Of a DNA stretch of 64,000 bases, positions 7,848-58,513 are shown piece after piece. The stretch is from Syntrophomonadaceae bacterium (GTDB taxonomy: Bacteria > Bacillota > PH28-bin88). Under the pieces are notes generated by a model. It did not search any database, was not told the origin of the DNA, and saw only the letters and a list, made by a program, of their open reading frames with translations. Within the stretch, counting starts at the first letter, position 1. Every line of letters starts with the position of its first letter. A program made the position numbers and the translations under genes. The DNA lies in the NCBI GenBank assembly GCA_018333865.1, contig JAGXSE010000065.1, positions 48,794-112,793 of the forward strand, written 5' to 3'.

Positions 7848-9998
7848 ATGCTAAGCAAAGTTAATATCAACAAAAGAGTAACCGTCCTATTTCTGCTCTT
7901 AATTGCGGTGTTGTCAGGCCTTAATTTGCGGATGGCATGGATTCAGCTCGTTAAGGGCAGTGAATACCAACAACGCGCGTTGGATAACAGATTGAGGGAG
8001 ATCCCTGTCGAGGCCAAGCGGGGTAAGATTCTTGACCGCAACGATAAAGAACTGGCAGTCAGTATTACTACTCCCTCAATTGGAGCTTTTCCACTTGAGG
8101 TCAGGCGTTCTGGCAAAGCAGAAGAAATTGCGGCAAAACTGGCTCCGCTTTTGGAGTTAACTGAGGATGAAGTATTAAAAAGTATTACCAGGAAAGAGTA
8201 CTTCTGGTGGATTAAGCGGAAAGTGCCTTTTAATGTGGGTGCCATGATTAAAGAGTTGGACCTGCCTGGCATCAGGGTAGTGGAAGAGAGCCAGCGCCAT
8301 TACCCTAACAGTTCCCTTGCCTCTCACATAATTGGGATTGCAGGGATAGACAATCAGGGTTTAGAAGGCCTGGAATGGTTTTATGACAAGGTCTTAAGGG
8401 GTACCACCGGCTACCTTGCGATTGAAAAGGATGCCGGCGGAAGAAGTATTCCCCATGCAAAACACTCTTTCATTCCGCCTACAGATGGAAATACCCTGGT
8501 TTTAACTATTGATGAAACCATTCAGTATATTGTGGAGCGGGAACTTGATAAGCTTTTTAATAGCCCAACTAACCCCAAAGCTGCTACAATTGTAGTAATG
8601 GACCCAAAAACCGGCGACGTTTTGGCCTTGGCCAACCGGCCAACTTTTAACCCAAATAACTTTGCGGCCTACCCTCAGAGAAACCGTCGCAACATAGCGG
8701 TATCCGATGTGTATGAACCAGGCTCAACATTTAAAATAATCACTGCGGCTGCTGCCCTTGAAGAAGGGGTGGTAGCGGAGCAGGAGCGCTTTTACGATCC
8801 GGGTTATATAAGGGTTGGCAGAGAAATAATAAACTGCTGGCGGCGTGGCCGGCCGCACGGCAGCCAATCCTTTGTTGAGGCGGTACTAAATTCCTGCAAC
8901 CCTGCGTTTGTTACGATAGGGTTGCGGCTGGAAGAACGCCGGAGAGGAAGCTTTTACGAATATATTCATGGTTTTGGTTTCGGAAGCCCTACTGGTCTGG
9001 ATTTGAGCGGAGAGGCAAAAGGCCTTTTGCGTCCTGCTGACAGATTGAGACAAATCAATATTGCTACCATTTCAATTGGTCAAGGTATTGCGGTGACACC
9101 TATTCAGCTGGCTACTGCTATGTCTGCCCTGATGAACGATGGTGTGTTAATGAAGCCACGTTTAGTTAAGGAAATCCGGGACAGTGAGGGGAAAGTGGCA
9201 AGAACTTTTGAGCCGAAACCAGTGCGTCAGGTAGTTTCAAAGGAAACAGCATTGCAGATGGCCAGTATTCTGGAACATGTAGTGAGCAGAGGCACCGGCC
9301 GCAGGGCTTACATACCAGGTTACCGTGCTGGTGGGAAAACAGGTACTGCCCAGAAGGTAGAGGGGGGCAAGTATGTTGAAGGCAGGTACATTGCATCTTT
9401 TTTAGGAGTTGCTCCGGTAAATGACCCCAGGCTGGTGTGCCTGGTAATAGTTGATGAACCACAGGGAGTTTATTATGGCGGTGTTGTTGCCGCTCCGATT
9501 TTTAAAAACGTTGTTGAGGATGCCCTGCGGTATTTAAATGTTCCTACTCAGTATGATCCCCGGTCAGAAAGGCCAAAAACAGAACCTCAAGCAGTTGAAG
9601 TGTCGGTGCCAGATGTTAACGGAATGTCCTTGGAAAGAGCGCAGGCTGTAATCAATGCCGCCGGTTTATTGGCTCAGGTTCAAGGCAATGGGCCCATAGT
9701 AATCAATCAGGTTCCGAAAGGTGCAGCAAGGGTAAAAGCAGGTACCAGGGTGATCATCTACGCCGGTTCAGGAGCGGCGGGCGCTGGGTCCCGCTTGGTT
9801 GTGCCAGATGTGACGGGCCGCCGGATCAGTGAATCTGTAATCCTGCTGGAGGCAATGGGACTGAAGCTTTTACCTGAGGGAACCGCGGGCGAGGCTGTTA
9901 AGCAGCACCCTATTCCAGGCACGATAGTTGAGCAGGGGTCTGCGATCAGGGTGAAGTTTCAGGAGCCCCCCCAAGTTGTTGAGAGCATTAGTCCGTAA
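7848..9998 (+). CDS. spoVD: class B penicillin-binding protein with C-terminal PASTA domains (SpoVD/FtsI type)
   Basis: 716 aa; transpeptidase motifs STFK, SCN and KTGT (SxxK/SxN/KTG); two C-terminal PASTA-like repeats; dcw position. Confidence 0.9.
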   Translation: MLSKVNINKRVTVLFLLLIAVLSGLNLRMAWIQLVKGSEYQQRALDNRLREIPVEAKRGKILDRNDKELAVSITTPSIGAFPLEVRRSGKAEEIAAKLAPLLELTEDEVLKSITRKEYFWWIKRKVPFNVGAMIKELDLPGIRVVEESQRHYPNSSLASHIIGIAGIDNQGLEGLEWFYDKVLRGTTGYLAIEKDAGGRSIPHAKHSFIPPTDGNTLVLTIDETIQYIVERELDKLFNSPTNPKAATIVVMDPKTGDVLALANRPTFNPNNFAAYPQRNRRNIAVSDVYEPGSTFKIITAAAALEEGVVAEQERFYDPGYIRVGREIINCWRRGRPHGSQSFVEAVLNSCNPAFVTIGLRLEERRRGSFYEYIHGFGFGSPTGLDLSGEAKGLLRPADRLRQINIATISIGQGIAVTPIQLATAMSALMNDGVLMKPRLVKEIRDSEGKVARTFEPKPVRQVVSKETALQMASILEHVVSRGTGRRAYIPGYRAGGKTGTAQKVEGGKYVEGRYIASFLGVAPVNDPRLVCLVIVDEPQGVYYGGVVAAPIFKNVVEDALRYLNVPTQYDPRSERPKTEPQAVEVSVPDVNGMSLERAQAVINAAGLLAQVQGNGPIVINQVPKGAARVKAGTRVIIYAGSGAAGAGSRLVVPDVTGRRISESVILLEAMGLKLLPEGTAGEAVKQHPIPGTIVEQGSAIRVKFQEPPQVVESISP

Positions 9999-25180: not shown

Positions 25181-25231
25181 TTTTCCTCGTCTGTTCTCCC
25201 TGCTAGGGTTCAGGGGTCCATATTAGTGAAA

Positions 25232-25268
25232 AAAGCCTATCCCTTTTTGTTTGGGGTAGGCTTTTATA
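25232..25268 (+). terminator. candidate terminator after ftsZ
   Basis: Imperfect hairpin AGCCTATCCC/GGGGTAGGCT followed by a T-rich tract. Confidence 0.4.
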
Positions 25269-45181: not shown

Positions 45182-45203
45182 TATTCAATAAAAAATGGTA
45201 AAA

Positions 45204-45238
45204 AGCGGGGACCATGTCGCAAGGTCCCCGCTTTATCT
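45204..45238 (+). terminator. candidate terminator
   Basis: Stem GCGGGGACC/GGTCCCCGC with short loop, then TTTATCTT. Confidence 0.5.
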
Positions 45239-54259: not shown

Positions 54260-55405
54260 ATGGGAGCACTAACCCCGCGGGAACGGGTCCGGCGGGCACT
54301 AAGTTTCCAGGAGCCTGACCGGGTTCCCACCGATGTGGGAACCAGTGCAGCGACAGGGATCACCCTGGGGGCTTATGAGCAATTAAAGCAGTATCTAAAG
54401 ATGCCTGATGCTACTGGGAGCGTAAATCACTTGATGTTTCAGACGGTAACGGCAGATCACCGGGTGCTGGAAAGGCTGGGAGTGGATTTCCGTCCGGTAT
54501 ACTATCGCCCGCCTGCCGAAAACAAGGGTATTTGGGGGCCTGATGACACTTTTGTCACAGAATGGGGGTTTACTGTCAAACGGCCTGAAGGCGGCCTGTA
54601 TTATGACATTATTAAAAGCCCATTGCTAGAGGCAGAAATAGAAGACCTGGACAGGTATCCCTGGCCGGATCCCCATGACCCAGGCCGGATCGCCGGAGTG
54701 GCTAAAGAGGCCAAGGAACTCTACGAGCAGACAGATTATGCAATATTTGGCCCGGGCATGGAAGGCGGATTTTTCGAGCTTTCCTGGTATTTAAGAGGAA
54801 TAGAGCGCTTTTTTATGGACCTAATCGAAAACAAAGAGTTTGTCCACGCCCTGTTCCGGAAGCTTTTGGATTATCGCAAGGCTTTATTGGGACGTTATCT
54901 TGATGCAGCAGGAAAATACCTGGATGTAGTGTATTACGGGGACGACATCGCCATGCAGACCGGCCCTTTGATGTCTTTAGGGCTCTACCGGGAGCTGGTC
55001 AAGCCCTATCAAAAAGAGCTGTTCAGTTTTATTAAAGAAAAGACCGAGGCCAAGCTCTTCTACCACACCTGTGGCAGCGTGGTAAAGTACTTGGACGATC
55101 TGATCGAGATCGGGGTTGATATCATTAACCCCGTTCAGGTCAGCGCCAAGGATATGGATACTGCCAGGTTAAAGCAAAGCTATGGCCATCGGCTGGTATT
55201 CTGGGGCGGGATCGATACCCAGCATGTCTTGCCTTTTGGTACAGAAGAAGAAGTAGAGGAAGAGGTAAAAAGGCGGATTAAAGACCTGGCTCCGGGCGGC
55301 GGCTATGTCTTGGGGCCTGTGCATAACGTCCAGCCTGACGTGCCTCCCCAGAACCTGGTGCGAGTTTTCCAGGCCGCCAGCCAGTACGGTGTTTATCATA
55401 GATAG
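54260..55405 (+). CDS. URO-D/MtaA-family methyltransferase (substrate:corrinoid type), copy 1
   Basis: 381 aa with PDRVP near N-terminus and HTCGS, GGGYVLGPVHNV segments. Confidence 0.8.
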   Translation: MGALTPRERVRRALSFQEPDRVPTDVGTSAATGITLGAYEQLKQYLKMPDATGSVNHLMFQTVTADHRVLERLGVDFRPVYYRPPAENKGIWGPDDTFVTEWGFTVKRPEGGLYYDIIKSPLLEAEIEDLDRYPWPDPHDPGRIAGVAKEAKELYEQTDYAIFGPGMEGGFFELSWYLRGIERFFMDLIENKEFVHALFRKLLDYRKALLGRYLDAAGKYLDVVYYGDDIAMQTGPLMSLGLYRELVKPYQKELFSFIKEKTEAKLFYHTCGSVVKYLDDLIEIGVDIINPVQVSAKDMDTARLKQSYGHRLVFWGGIDTQHVLPFGTEEEVEEEVKRRIKDLAPGGGYVLGPVHNVQPDVPPQNLVRVFQAASQYGVYHR

Positions 55406-55659
55406 CTACCCGCTCTAATCCCCCCACTAGTTGGGACATTCCTTTAAAGCGGCGGGATAAGAGCGGTTACGCTACACAAAGTTGGGGACATTCCTGTCCC
55501 AAAAAAATGGCCTGAGCTTCAGCAGGTGTGTCCCCGTTCCTTTTATCTGGCTCTAAGCTTCAGTGGGGGTAGTAATCCCCCCTCTGAAGCCAAGACCCAG
55601 TTGAACCAATCAGATTATAGCCCCTTCGATAGCTTAAAATAACCCAAGTATAAAACAGG

Positions 55660-55695
55660 CTGGAAGTGCCTTCGCCTAGGCGAAGGCACTTCCAG
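55660..55695 (+). repeat. 36-nt perfect inverted repeat (hairpin)
   Basis: CTGGAAGTGCCTTCGCC-TA-GGCGAAGGCACTTCCAG; no T-run on the plus side, T-rich on the minus side. Confidence 0.7.
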
Positions 55696-55723
55696 CAATT
55701 CTCATGGCCTCTAGCAACGCAGA

Positions 55724-55751
55724 TTGCATTTTTCGCCATTTCCTTTATAAT
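55724..55751 (+). promoter_or_regulatory. sigma-A-type promoter for the small two-gene cassette
   Basis: TTGCAT at 55724-55729, 16-nt spacer, TATAAT at 55746-55751. Confidence 0.45.
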
Positions 55752-55809
55752 CTAAGATAGCAGTGGTATGATGTCAAGCAACTAAATAGTATACCAAGGG
55801 GGTGTTTTT

Positions 55810-56067
55810 ATGGTTCCGTCACCCAAAGTTAAGAAACATCTCAGTGAGATCAAAAGAGAGCAGTGGACAGAGGCGGAATTGAGAGAGCTGCTCAAAGCCA
55901 TTGCCCGGGATTTCCAATTGCAAATCGAGATATCCGGCGAATCTGCAGATGATGATTTTTGGGCACTCACCCCGGATGAGGATCAGCATTTCAATGACCT
56001 GCTGGTCAAATCAGCGAGAGACACCAAAAATAAGTGTTTTACCGAATACAGTAGGCCGCAGCTCTAA
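55810..56067 (+). CDS. small acidic protein (antitoxin-like)
   Basis: 85 aa; acidic C-terminal half; ATG with AAGGGGG RBS; 2 nt from the next ORF. Confidence 0.3.
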   Translation: MVPSPKVKKHLSEIKREQWTEAELRELLKAIARDFQLQIEISGESADDDFWALTPDEDQHFNDLLVKSARDTKNKCFTEYSRPQL

Positions 56068-56069
56068 TC

Positions 56070-56396
56070 ATGCGCAGAAAGATCAGATTTCGCAGAACTC
56101 ATACCTATAATGAGGAATTGTTAAACATCCGGGAATTCAACCGGGAATTGGCCGAACAGATTGAAGAAAAGCGAGAGTATTTTGAGCGTTGCCTGACCAA
56201 TCCCCCTTACCTTCCGTCACCAGGCCTCAACATGGAGACACTGGAGGGTAAAATTACCCGGCCCGATTGGCTGAGAGGGTACCCTAAACTATACAGCTTC
56301 AGGGTGAATAAATATGCCCGAGTAATTTTCTGGTGGGCTGAAGACGGAACATGCGAGTATTTATTTCCTTTTGCCAAGCATTACAGAAGAAGTTGA
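56070..56396 (+). CDS. small basic protein with RelE/YoeB-like C-terminal pattern (toxin-like)
   Basis: 108 aa; C-terminus YSFRVNKYARVIFWWAEDGTCEYLFPFAKHYRR fits the RelE/ParE/YoeB core pattern. Confidence 0.3.
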   Translation: MRRKIRFRRTHTYNEELLNIREFNRELAEQIEEKREYFERCLTNPPYLPSPGLNMETLEGKITRPDWLRGYPKLYSFRVNKYARVIFWWAEDGTCEYLFPFAKHYRRS

Positions 56397-56423
56397 AGCT
56401 TCCTGCGAGGGAGGCTTTTTTTT
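56397..56423 (+). terminator. rho-independent terminator
   Basis: Stem AGCTTCC/GGAGGCT (one G-U) followed by TTTTTTTT. Confidence 0.6.
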
Positions 56424-56479: not shown

Positions 56480-57193
56480 ATCGCAATATATTGAACTTGT
56501 CTTATGGAAGGCAAAGGCAGTAGTATTAGATTAAGGAAAGGACTACAAAGGAGGTATTTGATACCAGTGTTGGAAGATATCAAGCAAGCAGTGATTGACG
56601 GGAACGCTCCCAAGATGAAAGCTATTACTGAAAGAGCACTGGCCGAAGGAATCAGTATTAATGACATCATCAACGAAGGCTTAATCGGCGGGATGAGCTA
56701 TATCGGTGTCAAGTTTAAAAACAACGAAGTATATGTGCCCGAGGTCTTGATTGCCGCCAGGGCAATGCATGCAGGCATGGGTGTGATTAAGCCCTTGTTA
56801 ACTGGTGAAAATTTTCAATCTAAAGGCACCTTCGTAATCGGCACCGTAAAAGGTGATCTCCACGACATCGGCAAGAACCTGGTGATCATGATGATGGAAG
56901 GCGCCGGCTTTAAGGTAGTTGACCTGGGGATAGATGTACCAACGGAAAAGTTTATTCAAGCGATCGAGGAGCACAAACCCCAAATTGTCGGGCTTTCAGC
57001 CTTGTTGACCACAACCATGGTCCAGATGAAAAACACCATTCAAGAACTGAAGCCTTACCGCAATGAAATCAAGGTGATGATCGGCGGAGCGCCGGTTACC
57101 CAAAAGTTTGCCGATGAAATCGGAGCCGATGCCTATGCCCCCGATGCGGCCACAGCTGTAGAACTGGCGACAGATCTACTGGCTTCATAGCTA
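56480..57193 (+). repeat. direct repeat copy 2 (corrinoid-protein gene plus upstream element)
   Basis: Near-identical to 52695-53415; see copy 1. Confidence 0.8.
56567..57190 (+). CDS. cobalamin-binding corrinoid protein, copy 2
   Basis: GTG 56567 aligns with copy 1 N-terminus (VLEDIKQAVIDG); same GDLHDIGKNLV motif; AAGGAGG RBS. Confidence 0.85.
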   Translation: MLEDIKQAVIDGNAPKMKAITERALAEGISINDIINEGLIGGMSYIGVKFKNNEVYVPEVLIAARAMHAGMGVIKPLLTGENFQSKGTFVIGTVKGDLHDIGKNLVIMMMEGAGFKVVDLGIDVPTEKFIQAIEEHKPQIVGLSALLTTTMVQMKNTIQELKPYRNEIKVMIGGAPVTQKFADEIGADAYAPDAATAVELATDLLAS

Positions 57194-57337
57194 TTGTTGA
57201 CATTAATCTGACTGCGCCATCCATCGTTAAGCACCAAAATTTCTTGTGTTGCCAATGTCTGATTATAAAGGATTTCTTAAAAGAGAAATTTGTGCGCCAG
57301 GATCTAACTTGTGATCGTGATAGTGTTTAAGTTGAAA

Positions 57338-57360
57338 GAAGTATTTGCACAGAATACTTC
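57338..57360 (+). promoter_or_regulatory. 8-bp-stem hairpin between corrinoid gene 2 and the methyltransferase
   Basis: GAAGTATT-tgcacag-AATACTTC; not followed by a T-run. Confidence 0.3.
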
Positions 57361-57415
57361 TATGCAATAAAAAGTTTGAATATTATGAGATTTTAAGAAC
57401 GGAGGCTTGCTAGGC

Positions 57416-58513
57416 ATGACCGAAATGAAACCTAGGCAACGTGTCTTAACAGCATTAAACTTAGGAGTTCCAGATAGGGTTCCATTTATGGAAAGTGCTA
57501 TAGATGAGATTTTACAGGTTCAATTAATGGGCAGAGATAATTTTACCCCAGATGAGCTATGTGAAAAATTGGGATTGGATGCTTTTGGTTATGACTATCC
57601 TGCTACCGGTGGAGAGCTAGGAACAGGGGAAGTTGCAAGGGGTATAACCACCCATGATGTATATTACTTTCCTAAAAGAATAACTTTTGATTTCCTGCCT
57701 CCGTGGATCGCTGATAAAGGAGAGGGGGTGGCGGGGCGTAGTTTTATAAAAAAAGGATTGCTAACCGATAATGATTCCATTGCACTATTTGATAAATTTC
57801 TTCCCGATCCCCATCACCTAGCCCGATACGACATTGTTTCTGATTGGATATCAAAATACAAAAAAGACTATGCGGTTTTTGCCCGCATTCGGCTGGGTGC
57901 AGCTCCCACGATTAATAGCATGGGCTTTGAGGAGTTGTGTTACAAAATTTTCGACAACCCCAATTTAGTTAAGGAAGTACACAGGAGGTTTTCTGAATGG
58001 ACGGCTCAGGTTATTCAGCACCTAAATAAAATGGACTTTGATTTTATTTGGGCGGCTGACGATATAGCCGATAATAAAGGTCCTTGGTTTTCACCAGCGA
58101 TTTTTCAAGAATTCTTTTTACCGTATATGAAGATTGCAGCCGATGAAATTAAGAAACCATGGGTCTTTCACAGTGACGGTAATTTGTTCCCTATTATGGA
58201 TGATTTGTTATCCTTGGGGATGCAAGGCATCCACCCATTGCAGCCTGCTGCAATGGACATTGTAAAAATGAAGGAAGATTACGGCCACAGGGTATGCCTT
58301 GTTGGTAATATCGATCTTGATTATACATTGACCCGGGGAACACCTGAAGAAGTGGAAGAGGAGGTTAAACAGCGGATTGAAACGATTGGCCAGAAAGGAG
58401 GTTATATTGTTAGCAGTGCTAATAGTCTAGCTTCATATGTAAAACCGGAGAATGCCTTAGCTTTGGGGCAAGCAGTCAAAAAGTACGGAAAGTATCCCTT
58501 AATTATTGATTGA
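57416..58513 (+). CDS. URO-D/MtaA-family methyltransferase, copy 2 (divergent paralog)
   Basis: PDRVP N-terminal motif, HSDGN and GGYIVSSANS segments; distant from copy 1. Confidence 0.8.
   Translation: MTEMKPRQRVLTALNLGVPDRVPFMESAIDEILQVQLMGRDNFTPDELCEKLGLDAFGYDYPATGGELGTGEVARGITTHDVYYFPKRITFDFLPPWIADKGEGVAGRSFIKKGLLTDNDSIALFDKFLPDPHHLARYDIVSDWISKYKKDYAVFARIRLGAAPTINSMGFEELCYKIFDNPNLVKEVHRRFSEWTAQVIQHLNKMDFDFIWAADDIADNKGPWFSPAIFQEFFLPYMKIAADEIKKPWVFHSDGNLFPIMDDLLSLGMQGIHPLQPAAMDIVKMKEDYGHRVCLVGNIDLDYTLTRGTPEEVEEEVKQRIETIGQKGGYIVSSANSLASYVKPENALALGQAVKKYGKYPLIID

What the first reader, a model, noticed from the sequence alone, without database searches (positions are those of the whole stretch)
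55406..55809. About 400 bp of non-coding sequence with dense secondary-structure potential
The longest intergenic gap in the island contains a 36-nt perfect palindrome (55660-55695), a GGGGG/CCCCC stem nested in a GCTTCAG/CTGAAGC stem, a GGGACA/TGTCCC hairpin, and the long-range complementary pair CCCGCTCTAATCC / GGATAAGAGCGG. No ORF of meaningful size is present. It could be a structured 3' UTR, a small RNA, a riboswitch-like leader for the downstream cassette, or a protein-binding palindrome.
Basis: seen in the sequence. Interest (0 to 1): 0.5.

Follow-up and report, generated by a model that had tools for sequence, protein, structure and literature searches.

The report
Cluster of small mobile-type hairpin repeats
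The hairpin-dense gap is mostly a strain-variable cluster of small repeats, of the MITE/REP kind, that recur between genes in related uncultured bacteria, plus one unexplained perfect palindrome, so it is not a riboswitch or a locus-specific RNA gene.

Summary
All the hairpins exist, the palindrome is 38 nt rather than 36 (55659-55696), and this gap is the structural outlier among the window's intergenic regions (z about -6.7). The interpretation mostly fails. No Rfam family, tRNA or conserved ORF is present. The closest relative (L061, flanks 94-99% identical) lacks 55398-55729 entirely and carries an RHH+PIN toxin-antitoxin pair there instead. Only 55730-55809, the promoter and RBS of the next gene, is conserved. 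One metagenome scan with a 21-mer from hairpin H2 returned 26 unrelated loci. H2 is therefore a copy of a roughly 60-nt repeat with invariant inverted ends (GGGGACAttCCTG...CAGGtgTGTCCCC) and a variable interior. Copies are mostly intergenic, lie in either orientation, sometimes form tandem arrays, and occur in genomes of 43-61% GC. H1 and H3 also recur, and the whole H1-H2-H3 block (55398-55605) has a second copy elsewhere in the same or a sister genome. In the window the block removed the last codons of the upstream methyltransferase gene and supplies its stop codon. The palindrome region (55606-55729) is unique so far and remains unexplained. It looks like a terminator only on the minus strand. 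Verdict: an apparently undescribed family of a well-known kind of element, of modest interest.

The parts
54260..55405 (+). Upstream gene: a URO-D/MtaA-like methyltransferase, the last gene of a corrinoid methyltransferase cassette (DUF1786, B12-binding, pterin-binding, URO-D). Its last two codons and stop codon (CAT AGA TAG, 55397-55405) are repeat-derived from 55398 onward.
   Evidence: Pfam assignments. Homologues and the sister allele end ...YPI(N/R/A)(L/F), whereas the window ends ...VYHR*. Similarity to L061 stops at 55397.
55398..55479 (.). H1 element. It begins with the left end ATAGATAGCTACCCGCTCTAA and has 22-nt imperfect inverted arms at 55407-55428 and 55448-55469. The arms enclose a fragment of the core repeat's 5' box (AGTTGGGACATTCCT, 55429-55443).
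   Evidence: The same left end, preceded by TTTATC, and the same right arm occur in L086/L092, where they enclose about 170 nt of other repeat material. The right arm also occurs in L095.
55480..55542 (+). H2, the core repeat: a roughly 60-nt miniature element. Its ends are invariant and inverted (GGGGACAttCCTG ... CAGGtgTGTCCCC), its interior is variable, and TT lies on both sides.
   Evidence: The 21-mer scan gave 26 metagenome loci. An nhmmer profile gave 34 copies in 27 sources, one of them in the window. Alignment and consensus fold. A long-interior member is seen.
55543..55605 (.). H3: a long imperfect hairpin element whose right end is ...GACCCAGTTGAA. The window copy carries an extra GGGGG-loop-CCCCC tip at 55564-55583.
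   Evidence: Other copies with different tips occur in L086/L092 and L095, all ending at the same right boundary.
55606..55729 (.). Allele-specific, so far unique DNA between the repeat block and the conserved promoter region.
   Evidence: No match in the window, in the roughly 110 fetched loci, or in the phage and plasmid collections. Absent from the L061-type allele.
55659..55696 (.). H4: a perfect 38-nt palindrome giving a 17-bp stem plus a 4-nt loop as RNA, about -36 kcal/mol. It is terminator-like only on the minus strand (tail CUGUUUUAUA). On the plus strand the tail is AAUUCUCAUGG.
   Evidence: Independent assemblies agree on the sequence. Short-read contigs break inside it.
55730..55809 (+). 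Conserved upstream region of the 85-aa gene. It holds a promoter-like site TTTATA-17-TGgTATGAT (55744-55772) and an RBS AAGGGGGTG (55797-55805). A minus-strand promoter-like site TTGACA-17-TAGATT (55777-55749) is also present.
   Evidence: 98.6-99.7% identical to the L061, L077 and L079 alleles from 55730 onward. Consensus scan.
55810..56396 (+). Downstream portable two-gene module: an 85-aa gene (55810-56067) and a 108-aa gene (56070-56396). Its DNA similarity block is 55794-56403, followed by a canonical terminator at 56395-56418 plus a T-run. It is context for the repeat cluster, not part of it.
   Evidence: The same pair sits in unrelated neighbourhoods at 75-87% nt identity. Terminator. 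The 108-aa model gives weak fold matches to RelE/ParE-type toxins.

Best explanation
The first 208 bp after the gene junction (55398-55605) are a nested cluster of three small, non-coding, palindromic repeat elements (H1, H2, H3). They belong to dispersed multi-copy families of the MITE / REP-BIME kind carried by uncultured Syntrophomonadaceae-like genomes.

**What is shown**
- H2 is a complete roughly 60-nt miniature element with conserved inverted ends and a free interior.
- The H1-H2-H3 block has defined ends and exists in at least one more copy elsewhere in the same or a sister genome.
- In the window lineage, the block sits where the sister allele has an RHH+PIN toxin-antitoxin pair.
- The block removed the last four or five codons of the URO-D methyltransferase gene and provides its new stop codon.

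**What is inferred**
- The hairpins exist because such elements are built from inverted ends that a transposase recognises, or that fold in single-stranded DNA. They do not need to encode a locus-specific RNA function.
- Any effect on the host would be incidental, such as a bulky structured 3' tail on the methyltransferase mRNA or partial termination or insulation from the next promoter.
- The mobilising enzyme is inferred, not identified.

The remaining 124 bp, with the perfect 38-nt palindrome (H4), are allele-specific DNA of unknown origin. The most likely readings are a terminator or insulator hairpin, or a leftover of earlier turnover at this hot spot. The last 80 bp (55730-55809) are simply the promoter and RBS of the next gene pair.
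For: - **Presence/absence polymorphism.** L061, L077 and L079 match the window up to 55397 and again from 55730 (94-99.7% identity). Between those points they hold 1006 bp with RHH_3 and PIN genes instead.
- **Multi-copy.** The H2 21-mer occurs in 26 metagenome loci on different contigs. The profile search finds 34 copies.
- **Where copies lie.** 29 of 34 copies are intergenic by crude ORF calls, next to ordinary genes such as enoyl-CoA hydratases, ABC transporters and an aminotransferase.
- **No orientation bias.** My count is 9 copies sense and 11 antisense to the gene whose 3' end faces the element.
- **Ends conserved, interior free.** The end boxes are invariant across 17 distinct copies. 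The interior varies in sequence and in length, from about 25 to about 95 nt.
- **Typical repeat behaviour.** Tandem arrays occur in L098 and L104, an inverted pair in L108, and solo end fragments elsewhere.
- **Carriers differ widely.** Host loci range from 43 to 61% GC. L086, L092 and L095 have tetranucleotide r of 0.93-0.94 to the window, and the Ga0209347 loci about 0.8.
- **A second copy of the whole block.** L086/L092 carry H1-H2-H3 with the same left end (TTTATC|ATAGATAGCTACCCGCTCTAA) and the same right end (CAGTTGAA|). A third H1-right-arm + H3 copy is in L095.
- **An assembly break where expected.** A k=31 (assumed k-mer size) Logan contig from the left ends at 55543. That is the position predicted if the 49-nt stretch 55514-55562 is repeated in that genome, as it is in L092.
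- **Gene truncation.** Homologues and the sister allele end ...YPI(N/R/A)(L/F), and the window ends ...VYHR*.
- **Nothing else explains it.** No Rfam family, tRNA or conserved ORF is present.
Against: - No transposase or autonomous partner with matching ends was found in about 1 Mb of fetched sequence.
- No clean empty site is available, so transposition, exact termini and target-site duplication are not demonstrated.
- The constant TT on both sides of the core could be a 2-bp duplication, a target preference, or part of the element.
- Only one core copy lies in the 64-kb window. Copy number in this particular genome may therefore be low. At least 16 copies were seen in another organism's sample.
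- The scan required an exact 21-mer, which biases the apparent conservation of the 5' box.
- Invariant boxes across genomes of very different GC content could also mean a host-selected function rather than transposase recognition.
Confidence: 0.78

Rival explanations
1. Selected cis-acting RNA structure. The hairpins act in the methyltransferase operon's 3' UTR as a terminator or as a block to 3'-exonucleases. H2 (a GC-rich stem followed by GUUCCUUUUAU) and/or H4 would stop or stabilise the transcript and insulate the next promoter. This can coexist with a repeat origin, as with REP, SPRITE and Correia elements.
For: The segment lies directly 3' of the operon and upstream of the next promoter-like site. 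The hairpins are very stable. In many copies the core stem is followed by a T-rich (A/T/G)TTCCTT tail. Two U-G pairs make the core fold slightly better on the strand shown. The review PMC3184786 records mRNA-stabilising REPs and terminator-like SPRITE repeats.
Against: Core copies show no orientation bias relative to the gene ending next to them: 9 sense against 11 antisense, my count. Each hairpin folds about equally well on either strand. The sister allele works without any of it. H4 has a U-tract only on the minus strand. There is no covariation.
Confidence: 0.2
2. Riboswitch-like or attenuator leader controlling the downstream genes (the 85-aa/108-aa pair and the second corrinoid methyltransferase pair).
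For: Several mutually exclusive pairings exist. For example, GGGGACA can pair with either of two TGTCCC(C) partners, and 55416-55428 can pair with 55562-55574.
Against: No Rfam hit. The promoter-like site and RBS lie downstream of all the hairpins, in the only part conserved in the sister allele. The 85/108 module occurs elsewhere without this sequence. The alternative pairings follow from repeated copies of the same repeat ends.
Confidence: 0.02
3. A small minus-strand RNA of about 95 nt. It would start at the promoter-like TTGACA-17-TAGATT (55777-55749) and end at H4 plus its UUUU tail (about 55650).
For: The promoter match is 10 of 12. H4 qualifies as a terminator only on the minus strand.
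Against: Promoter-like sites are no more frequent here than in shuffled sequence: 2 found against 1.6 expected, and 36 against 31.7 over 20 kb. The H4 half is missing in the sister allele, where the same promoter would read into the PIN gene. Rfam gives no match, and there are no homologous loci to test.
Confidence: 0.05
4. H4 is a DNA-level site. It could be an operator or binding site for a dimeric protein, a cruciform or recombination site that marks the boundary of the variable segment, or a remnant of an earlier occupant of this hot spot.
For: It is a perfect 38-bp dyad with no spacer and the strongest short-range inverted repeat in the window. It lies in the allele-specific DNA, close to the right breakpoint at 55730. 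The locus turns over toxin-antitoxin modules and repeats.
Against: It is far longer than usual operators. No candidate binding protein is linked to it. The 85-aa/108-aa pair and its promoter occur without it. No second copy is known, so nothing can be compared.
Confidence: 0.1
5. The H1-H2-H3 block is one non-autonomous element of the IS200/IS605 (PATE) or REP/RAYT type, moved as single-stranded DNA by a Y1 (HUH) transposase. Such elements have defined ends without terminal inverted repeats, hairpins just inside both ends, and insertion 3' of a short target (TTTATC).
For: Two copies share the same left junction TTTATC|ATAG..., and three share the same right end ...CAGTTGAA|. The block as a whole has no terminal inverted repeat. 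H1 sits about 10 nt from the left end and H3 sits at the right end. The block folds strongly as single-stranded DNA.
Against: Only two or three copies are available. No Y1 transposase or RAYT gene was seen. The left and right hairpins are unrelated in sequence, unlike IS200/IS605 ends. The core inside the block behaves as an independent element with inverted ends.
Confidence: 0.12

Closest known systems
MITEs (miniature inverted-repeat transposable elements), e.g. Neisseria Correia elements, pneumococcal RUP, Acinetobacter MITEs
   Same: Short and non-coding. They have conserved inverted termini with a variable interior, fold into long hairpins, occur in many copies between genes in either orientation, can be nested or clustered, and can fuse to or truncate the 3' ends of ORFs (review PMC3184786; here).
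   Different: The core is very small, about 60 nt with roughly 13-nt imperfect inverted ends. No autonomous IS with matching ends was found and no target-site duplication was proven. Tandem head-to-tail arrays (L098, L104) are unusual for MITEs.
REP / BIME elements of proteobacteria, with their RAYT transposases
   Same: GC-rich extragenic palindromes clustered into mosaic units in intergenic regions. They sit at the 3' ends of operons, where they can stabilise mRNA, and they act as targets for further insertions (my own knowledge, and PMC3184786).
   Different: The core has no GTAG-type 5' tetranucleotide. The units are longer than the classic 20-40 nt. No RAYT gene was seen. Copy number per genome is unknown. 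The hosts are Firmicutes-type MAGs, and the same sequence is shared across genomes of very different GC content, whereas REPs are usually species-specific.
Modular pneumococcal repeats (BOX, SPRITE) and enterobacterial ERIC/IRU
   Same: Modular, highly structured intergenic repeats that differ between strains. SPRITE resembles a Rho-independent terminator (PMC3184786). The window block is likewise modular (H1, core, H3), with modules found in different combinations.
   Different: There is no sequence relationship. The core family shows no bias towards the 3' ends of co-oriented genes.
Intrinsic (Rho-independent) terminators
   Same: H4 is a strong GC-rich hairpin with a U-run on the minus strand. 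H2 has a GC-rich stem base followed by a U-rich tail on the plus strand.
   Different: H4 lacks a plus-strand U-tract and no minus-strand gene reads into it. Typical terminators in this window are 13-15-bp stems flanked by A and T tracts (45202-45234, 25231-25265, 56395-56418).

Membership tests
MITE | Terminal inverted repeats flanking a short non-coding interior | tested here: met
   The core ends GGGGACAttCCTG / CAGGtgTGTCCCC are invariant in 17 distinct copies, while the interior varies from 25 to 95 nt. The H1 arms are 22 nt and 82% complementary.
MITE | Multiple dispersed copies, mostly intergenic | tested here: met
   26 loci from one 21-mer scan. 34 profile hits, 29 of them intergenic by crude ORF calls.
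MITE | Target-site duplication flanking each copy | tested here: inconclusive
   TT is present on both sides of nearly all core copies, and the full NTT matches in only about 3 of 14. No empty site is available to tell a duplication from element sequence.
MITE | A related autonomous IS with the same ends and a transposase | tested here: not met
   ORF clustering over the 26 loci found no multi-copy transposase-like ORF. The eight recurring or flanking ORFs that were checked against Pfam are ordinary genes with no transposase domain. Only about 0.25 Mb was searched, so this is a weak negative.
REP/BIME | Short GC-rich imperfect palindromes, extragenic, clustered in mosaics | tested here: met
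   H1, core and H3 are adjacent in the window and in L086/L092. L086 has a further member 40 bp away. Arrays occur in L098 and L104.
REP/BIME | Conserved 5' GT[AG]G tetranucleotide and an associated RAYT (Y1 transposase) gene flanked by REPs | tested here: not met
   The core begins (G/A)TTGGGGACA with no GTAG. No RAYT-like gene was seen in the fetched loci. Complete genomes were not available.
Riboswitch / cis-regulatory leader (any Rfam family) | Match to a curated covariance model, position between promoter and regulated gene, and conservation with that gene | tested here: not met
   Rfam gives 0 hits at gathering thresholds and only noise at E up to 10. The segment lies upstream of the promoter-like site. 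It is absent from the sister allele and from all other contexts of the downstream module.
Structured RNA gene (sRNA) | Covariation supporting the fold, its own promoter and terminator, and a conserved locus | tested here: not met
   0 of 13 core pairs covary and all are invariant. Folding is symmetrical between strands. The locus is not conserved. Transcription could not be tested.
Intrinsic terminator | GC-rich hairpin immediately followed by a U-tract on the transcribed strand, at the 3' end of a co-oriented gene | tested here: inconclusive
   H4 meets the pattern only on the minus strand, where no gene precedes it. H2 has a U-rich tail on the plus strand, but its large loop falls outside the scan's rules.
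IS200/IS605-derived PATE | Defined ends without inverted repeats or duplications, hairpins just inside both ends, insertion 3' of a fixed short target, and a Y1 transposase in the genome | tested here: inconclusive
   The H1-H2-H3 block shows shared junctions, TTTATC| on the left (2 copies) and CAGTTGAA| on the right (3 copies), and no terminal inverted repeat. There are too few copies to judge, and the transposase was not searched genome-wide.
CRISPR array / integron attC | Identical repeats separated by unique spacers, or an R''-L''...L'-R' site with a GTTRRRY core | tested here: not met
   Tandem units in L098 repeat the whole 61-64-nt unit with no unique spacers. GTTGGGA and GTTGGGG do not fit GTTRRRY (read directly from the sequence).

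The most novel reading that the evidence does not exclude
The roughly 60-nt core may be more than a decaying MITE. Its two invariant boxes are GTTGGGGACATTCCTGTCCCAAAA and GCTTCAGCAGGTGTGTCCCC-nTTCC. It could be a host-recruited or self-propagating hairpin element of a new type. The boxes stay identical in genomes from 43 to 61% GC while the interior drifts. Copies also form tandem arrays and recur inside larger hairpins. These traits would fit a specific DNA- or RNA-binding protein, or an unrecognised single-strand transposase, that acts on GGGGAC...GTCCCC hairpins across a whole clade of syntrophic Firmicutes. The unexplained perfect 38-bp palindrome next to the block could mark the recombination boundary of the hot spot.
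Probability: 0.12. Interest if true: 0.55.

Novelty: new member of a known kind. Interest (0 to 1): 0.3.

Why it matters
For annotation, this removes a false lead. A very strongly folding 400-bp gap next to corrinoid methyltransferase genes is not a riboswitch or a new RNA gene. It is a strain-variable patch of small repeats plus one palindrome.

The result also has some modest positive value.
- It defines a repeat family that appears undescribed. It has no Rfam match, no literature hit for its sequence, and no match in the phage or plasmid collections.
- The family is shared by several uncultured Syntrophomonadaceae-like genomes.
- It coincides with the point where one short-read contig breaks, and its tandem arrays sit at contig ends.
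- In this locus it remodelled the 3' end of a gene.
- It marks a hot spot where toxin-antitoxin modules and repeats replace one another.

A profile of the core could be used to mask or annotate these elements in MAGs and to look for the enzyme that moves them.

Tried and rejected
- **Rfam.** The whole window at gathering thresholds gave 0 hits. The region at E up to 10 gave only microRNA and snoRNA noise on the palindrome. Five repeat-bearing loci gave nothing relevant.
- **tRNA and tmRNA.** None found.
- **Coding potential.** The largest ORF is 59 aa on the minus strand. It has no Pfam or NCBIfam hit and no real homologue among 1.84 billion representatives. A six-frame Pfam attempt failed on stop codons.
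- **A second copy inside the window or early loci.** None found.
- **Phage and plasmid collections.** BLAST found no match.
- **Viral contig scans.** Scans with H1, H3 and H4 patterns gave nothing. The GGGACATTCCT pair hit an unrelated iteron-like tandem repeat. An 18-mer from the core 5' box gave two chance hits lacking the rest of the element, and one from the 3' box gave none.
- **Literature search for the repeat sequence.** 0 papers.
- **Concatenated six-frame peptides of the repeats** run against the 5.8-billion-protein index, to catch spurious ORF calls on other copies. No candidate scored, probably because candidates were swamped, so this is uninformative.
- **Search for a recurrent transposase near copies.** None found.
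- **Integron attC and CRISPR readings.** Rejected on sequence grounds.
- **Residual similarity between the two alleles' inserts.** None found.
Full report
**Observation**

There are four hairpin modules:
- H1 at 55407-55469;
- H2 at 55483-55535;
- H3 at 55542-55605;

The folding potential is far above chance. The whole gap gives z -6.6 on the plus strand and -7.8 on the minus strand. As single-stranded DNA, 55398-55729 gives z -8.3. Each hairpin alone gives z between -3.0 and -9.9. Among the 17 intergenic gaps of the window this one is the clear outlier. H4 is the longest short-range inverted repeat in the 64 kb. No ORF is credible. The longest is 59 aa and has no real homologues. There is no tRNA and no Rfam family.

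**Context**

- Upstream lies a corrinoid methyltransferase cassette: DUF1786, a B12-binding protein, a pterin-binding protein and URO-D.
- Downstream lie two small ORFs of 85 and 108 aa, then a second B12-binding plus URO-D pair and a TRAP transporter.
- The window is part of a 320-kb metagenome contig. The identical gap is present in four independent assemblies, so the palindrome is not an assembly artefact.
- NCBI labels the 85-aa protein as coming from a Syntrophomonadaceae MAG.
- GTDB species representatives hold no close relative of the URO-D gene. The best is 50% identical.

**The sister allele**

A close relative is available: L061, L077 and L079, whose URO-D is 98% identical in protein.
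- It matches the window up to 55397, at 94-97% nucleotide identity.
- It matches again from 55730, at 98.6-99.7%.
- In between it carries an unrelated 1006 bp encoding an RHH_3 antitoxin-like protein and a PIN-domain protein.

Three conclusions follow.
- Segment 55398-55729, which holds all four hairpins, is a strain-variable insertion or replacement.
- Only 55730-55809 is conserved. That stretch holds the promoter-like TTTATA-17-TGgTATGAT and the RBS of the 85-aa gene, so the structured part cannot be that gene's leader.
- Homologues of the URO-D protein, and the sister allele itself, end ...YPI(N/R/A)(L/F). The window protein ends ...VYHR*. The window allele has therefore lost the last four or five codons, and its stop codon comes from the inserted DNA.

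**The hairpins are repeats**

Aligning them shows a roughly 60-nt unit:

(G/A)TTGGGGACATTCCTGTCCCAAAA - variable 11-13 nt - GCTTCAGCAGGTGTGTCCCC - (A/T/G)TTCC.

A profile search finds 34 copies in 27 sources and only one in the window. The family has these properties:
- **Ends and interior.** The ends GGGGACAttCCTG and CAGGtgTGTCCCC are inverted copies of each other and are invariant. The interior varies in sequence and in length, up to about 95 nt in one L086 member.
- **No covariation.** RNAalifold predicts an 8+5-bp stem, but none of the 13 pairs covaries, because the ends never change.
- **Location.** Copies are mostly intergenic (29 of 34), next to ordinary genes.
- **Orientation.** There is no bias relative to the gene ending beside them: 9 sense against 11 antisense, my count.
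- **Arrangements.** There are tandem arrays (L098, L104), an inverted pair (L108), solo end fragments (L086 near position 9050, L103), and nesting inside larger inverted repeats. In sample Ga0209347, at least 16 near-identical copies sit within a roughly 150-nt composite.
- **Hosts.** Host loci range from 43 to 61% GC.

H1 and H3 are repeats too. L086/L092 have a tetranucleotide correlation of 0.94 with the window, and L092 comes from the same sample as a contig identical to the window. They carry the same H1-H2-H3 block, with three points of agreement:
- the same left junction, TTTATC|ATAGATAGCTACCCGCTCTAA;
- a 49-nt identical stretch across the H2/H3 junction;
- the same right end, ...GACCCAGTTGAA|.

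In that copy the H1 arms enclose about 170 nt of other repeat material and H3 has a different tip. L095 holds a third H1-right-arm + H3 copy with a nearly perfect H3 stem. Beyond the A-A mismatch, the H1 inner stem differs between copies but still pairs (ATCCC/GGGAT in the window, AGG/CCT in L092).

Assembly behaviour fits. A Logan contig coming from the left stops at 55543, exactly where the first 31-mer (assuming k=31) shared with the L092 copy would begin to branch the graph. Contigs coming from the right stop inside the H4 palindrome.

**What is not explained**

The 124 bp at 55606-55729, which include H4, have no match in anything fetched, and no further metagenome scan was possible.
- On the minus strand H4 looks like an intrinsic terminator, with tail CUGUUUUAUA.
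- On the plus strand the tail is AAUUCUCAUGG.
- No minus-strand gene reads into it. A minus-strand promoter-like site at 55777-55749 could in principle give a roughly 95-nt RNA ending at H4, but such consensus matches are at background frequency.

**Mechanism**

The best-supported reading is that 55398-55605 is a mosaic of small non-autonomous palindromic repeats of the MITE / REP-BIME kind. The mosaic landed in, or recombined into, a hot spot between two operons. This is the same spot where the sister lineage holds a toxin-antitoxin pair.

The shown steps are the multi-copy nature of the elements, their conserved ends, the presence/absence polymorphism and the truncation of the gene end.

The inferred steps are mobility by a transposase acting in trans, which was not found, and any effect on the host. 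A secondary role as a structured 3' tail, terminator or insulator is possible, as is known for REP, SPRITE and Correia elements (PMC3184786). The lack of orientation bias and the dispensability of the segment in the sister allele argue against it being the reason the sequence exists.

A variant reading treats the whole block as a single-strand-transposed PATE/REP-like unit, with defined ends, no terminal inverted repeat, hairpins just inside both ends, and insertion after TTTATC. It rests on only two or three copies.

**Comparison with known families**

- **MITE.** The core meets the criteria of inverted ends, short non-coding interior, many intergenic copies and hairpin folding. It has no proven target duplication or autonomous partner.
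- **REP/BIME.** It resembles these in clustering and GC-rich palindromes. It lacks the GTAG signature and a RAYT gene.
- **Rfam.** It is not a member of any Rfam family.
- **Prior description.** No paper in the searchable library contains its sequence.

I therefore file it as a new member of a known kind.

**Side finding**

The 85-aa + 108-aa pair (DNA similarity block 55794-56403) is a portable module. It occurs at 75-87% nucleotide identity in unrelated neighbourhoods, including a toxin-antitoxin and defence-rich island. The two ORFs are 2 nt apart in the window and overlap in some homologous loci, and the pair has its own terminator. A low-confidence model of the 108-aa protein has its best, though weak, fold matches to the RelE/ParE-type toxins YoeB, GraT, YafQ and HigB. 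It is probably a type II toxin-antitoxin pair, which fits the hot-spot picture.

**Verdict**

The interpretation as a regulatory or RNA-gene element is mostly not supported. The sequence is ordinary in kind, being repeat DNA plus a palindrome, although the repeat family itself seems undescribed. Interest is 0.3.

Noticed in passing
window 55794-56403 (genes 55810-56067 and 56070-56396); L064-L074: The 85-aa + 108-aa gene pair is a portable module. It occurs at 75-87% nt identity in unrelated contexts: after a VWA_CoxE gene, and in an island with HepT, AbiEii, PIN-MazE and DUF3800. It has no Pfam or NCBIfam hit. The 108-aa model (pLDDT 65) has its best, weak, fold matches to the RelE/ParE-type toxins YoeB, GraT, YafQ and HigB. 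It is probably an unannotated type II toxin-antitoxin pair.
   Followed up: partly
L061 11295-12001 (also L077, L079), at the position of window 55398-55729: The sister allele carries an RHH_3 + PIN (VapBC-like) pair exactly where the window has the repeat cluster. The site between the two methyltransferase cassettes is therefore a hot spot for small mobile modules.
   Followed up: yes
window 55392-55405: The URO-D methyltransferase of the window allele is truncated by four or five residues. It ends ...VYHR*, whereas homologues and the sister allele end ...YPI(N/R/A)(L/F). The last two codons (from 55398) and the stop codon come from the repeat element.
   Followed up: yes
L084, L093, L096, L097, L102, L106 (sample Ga0209347), flanks of the repeat copies: Repeat copies in this other organism are often flanked by short tandem runs of 7-8-nt units: GGAGACA, CAGAATC, AGCTGTT, CACAAAG and GGAATTG-like. 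In several copies there is also an outer layer with inverted ends CTACAGCGTA...TACGCTGTAG next to TA dinucleotides, which may be a TA-duplicating MITE.
   Followed up: no
L080 (Logan SRR22746128), downstream of the 85/108 pair: A third arrangement exists in which the 85/108 pair is followed directly by the DctP gene. The second B12-binding + URO-D pair (window 56504-58513) is missing.
   Followed up: no
window 1-64000: The whole 64-kb window has no Rfam match at gathering thresholds: no rRNA, riboswitch or known sRNA. tRNA genes were scanned directly only in 54800-56400. This holds even though the window contains a cell-division/mur-like gene run and several B12-dependent methyltransferase cassettes.
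   Followed up: no
L083 4267-4323 (IMG/VR contig IMGVR_UViG_3300017593_000921): An unrelated AT-rich viral contig has three tandem 23-nt units, TTTTTTAAGGGACATTCCTCAAG, that share the 11-mer GGGACATTCCT with the repeat. They look like iterons and are judged a chance overlap.
   Followed up: partly
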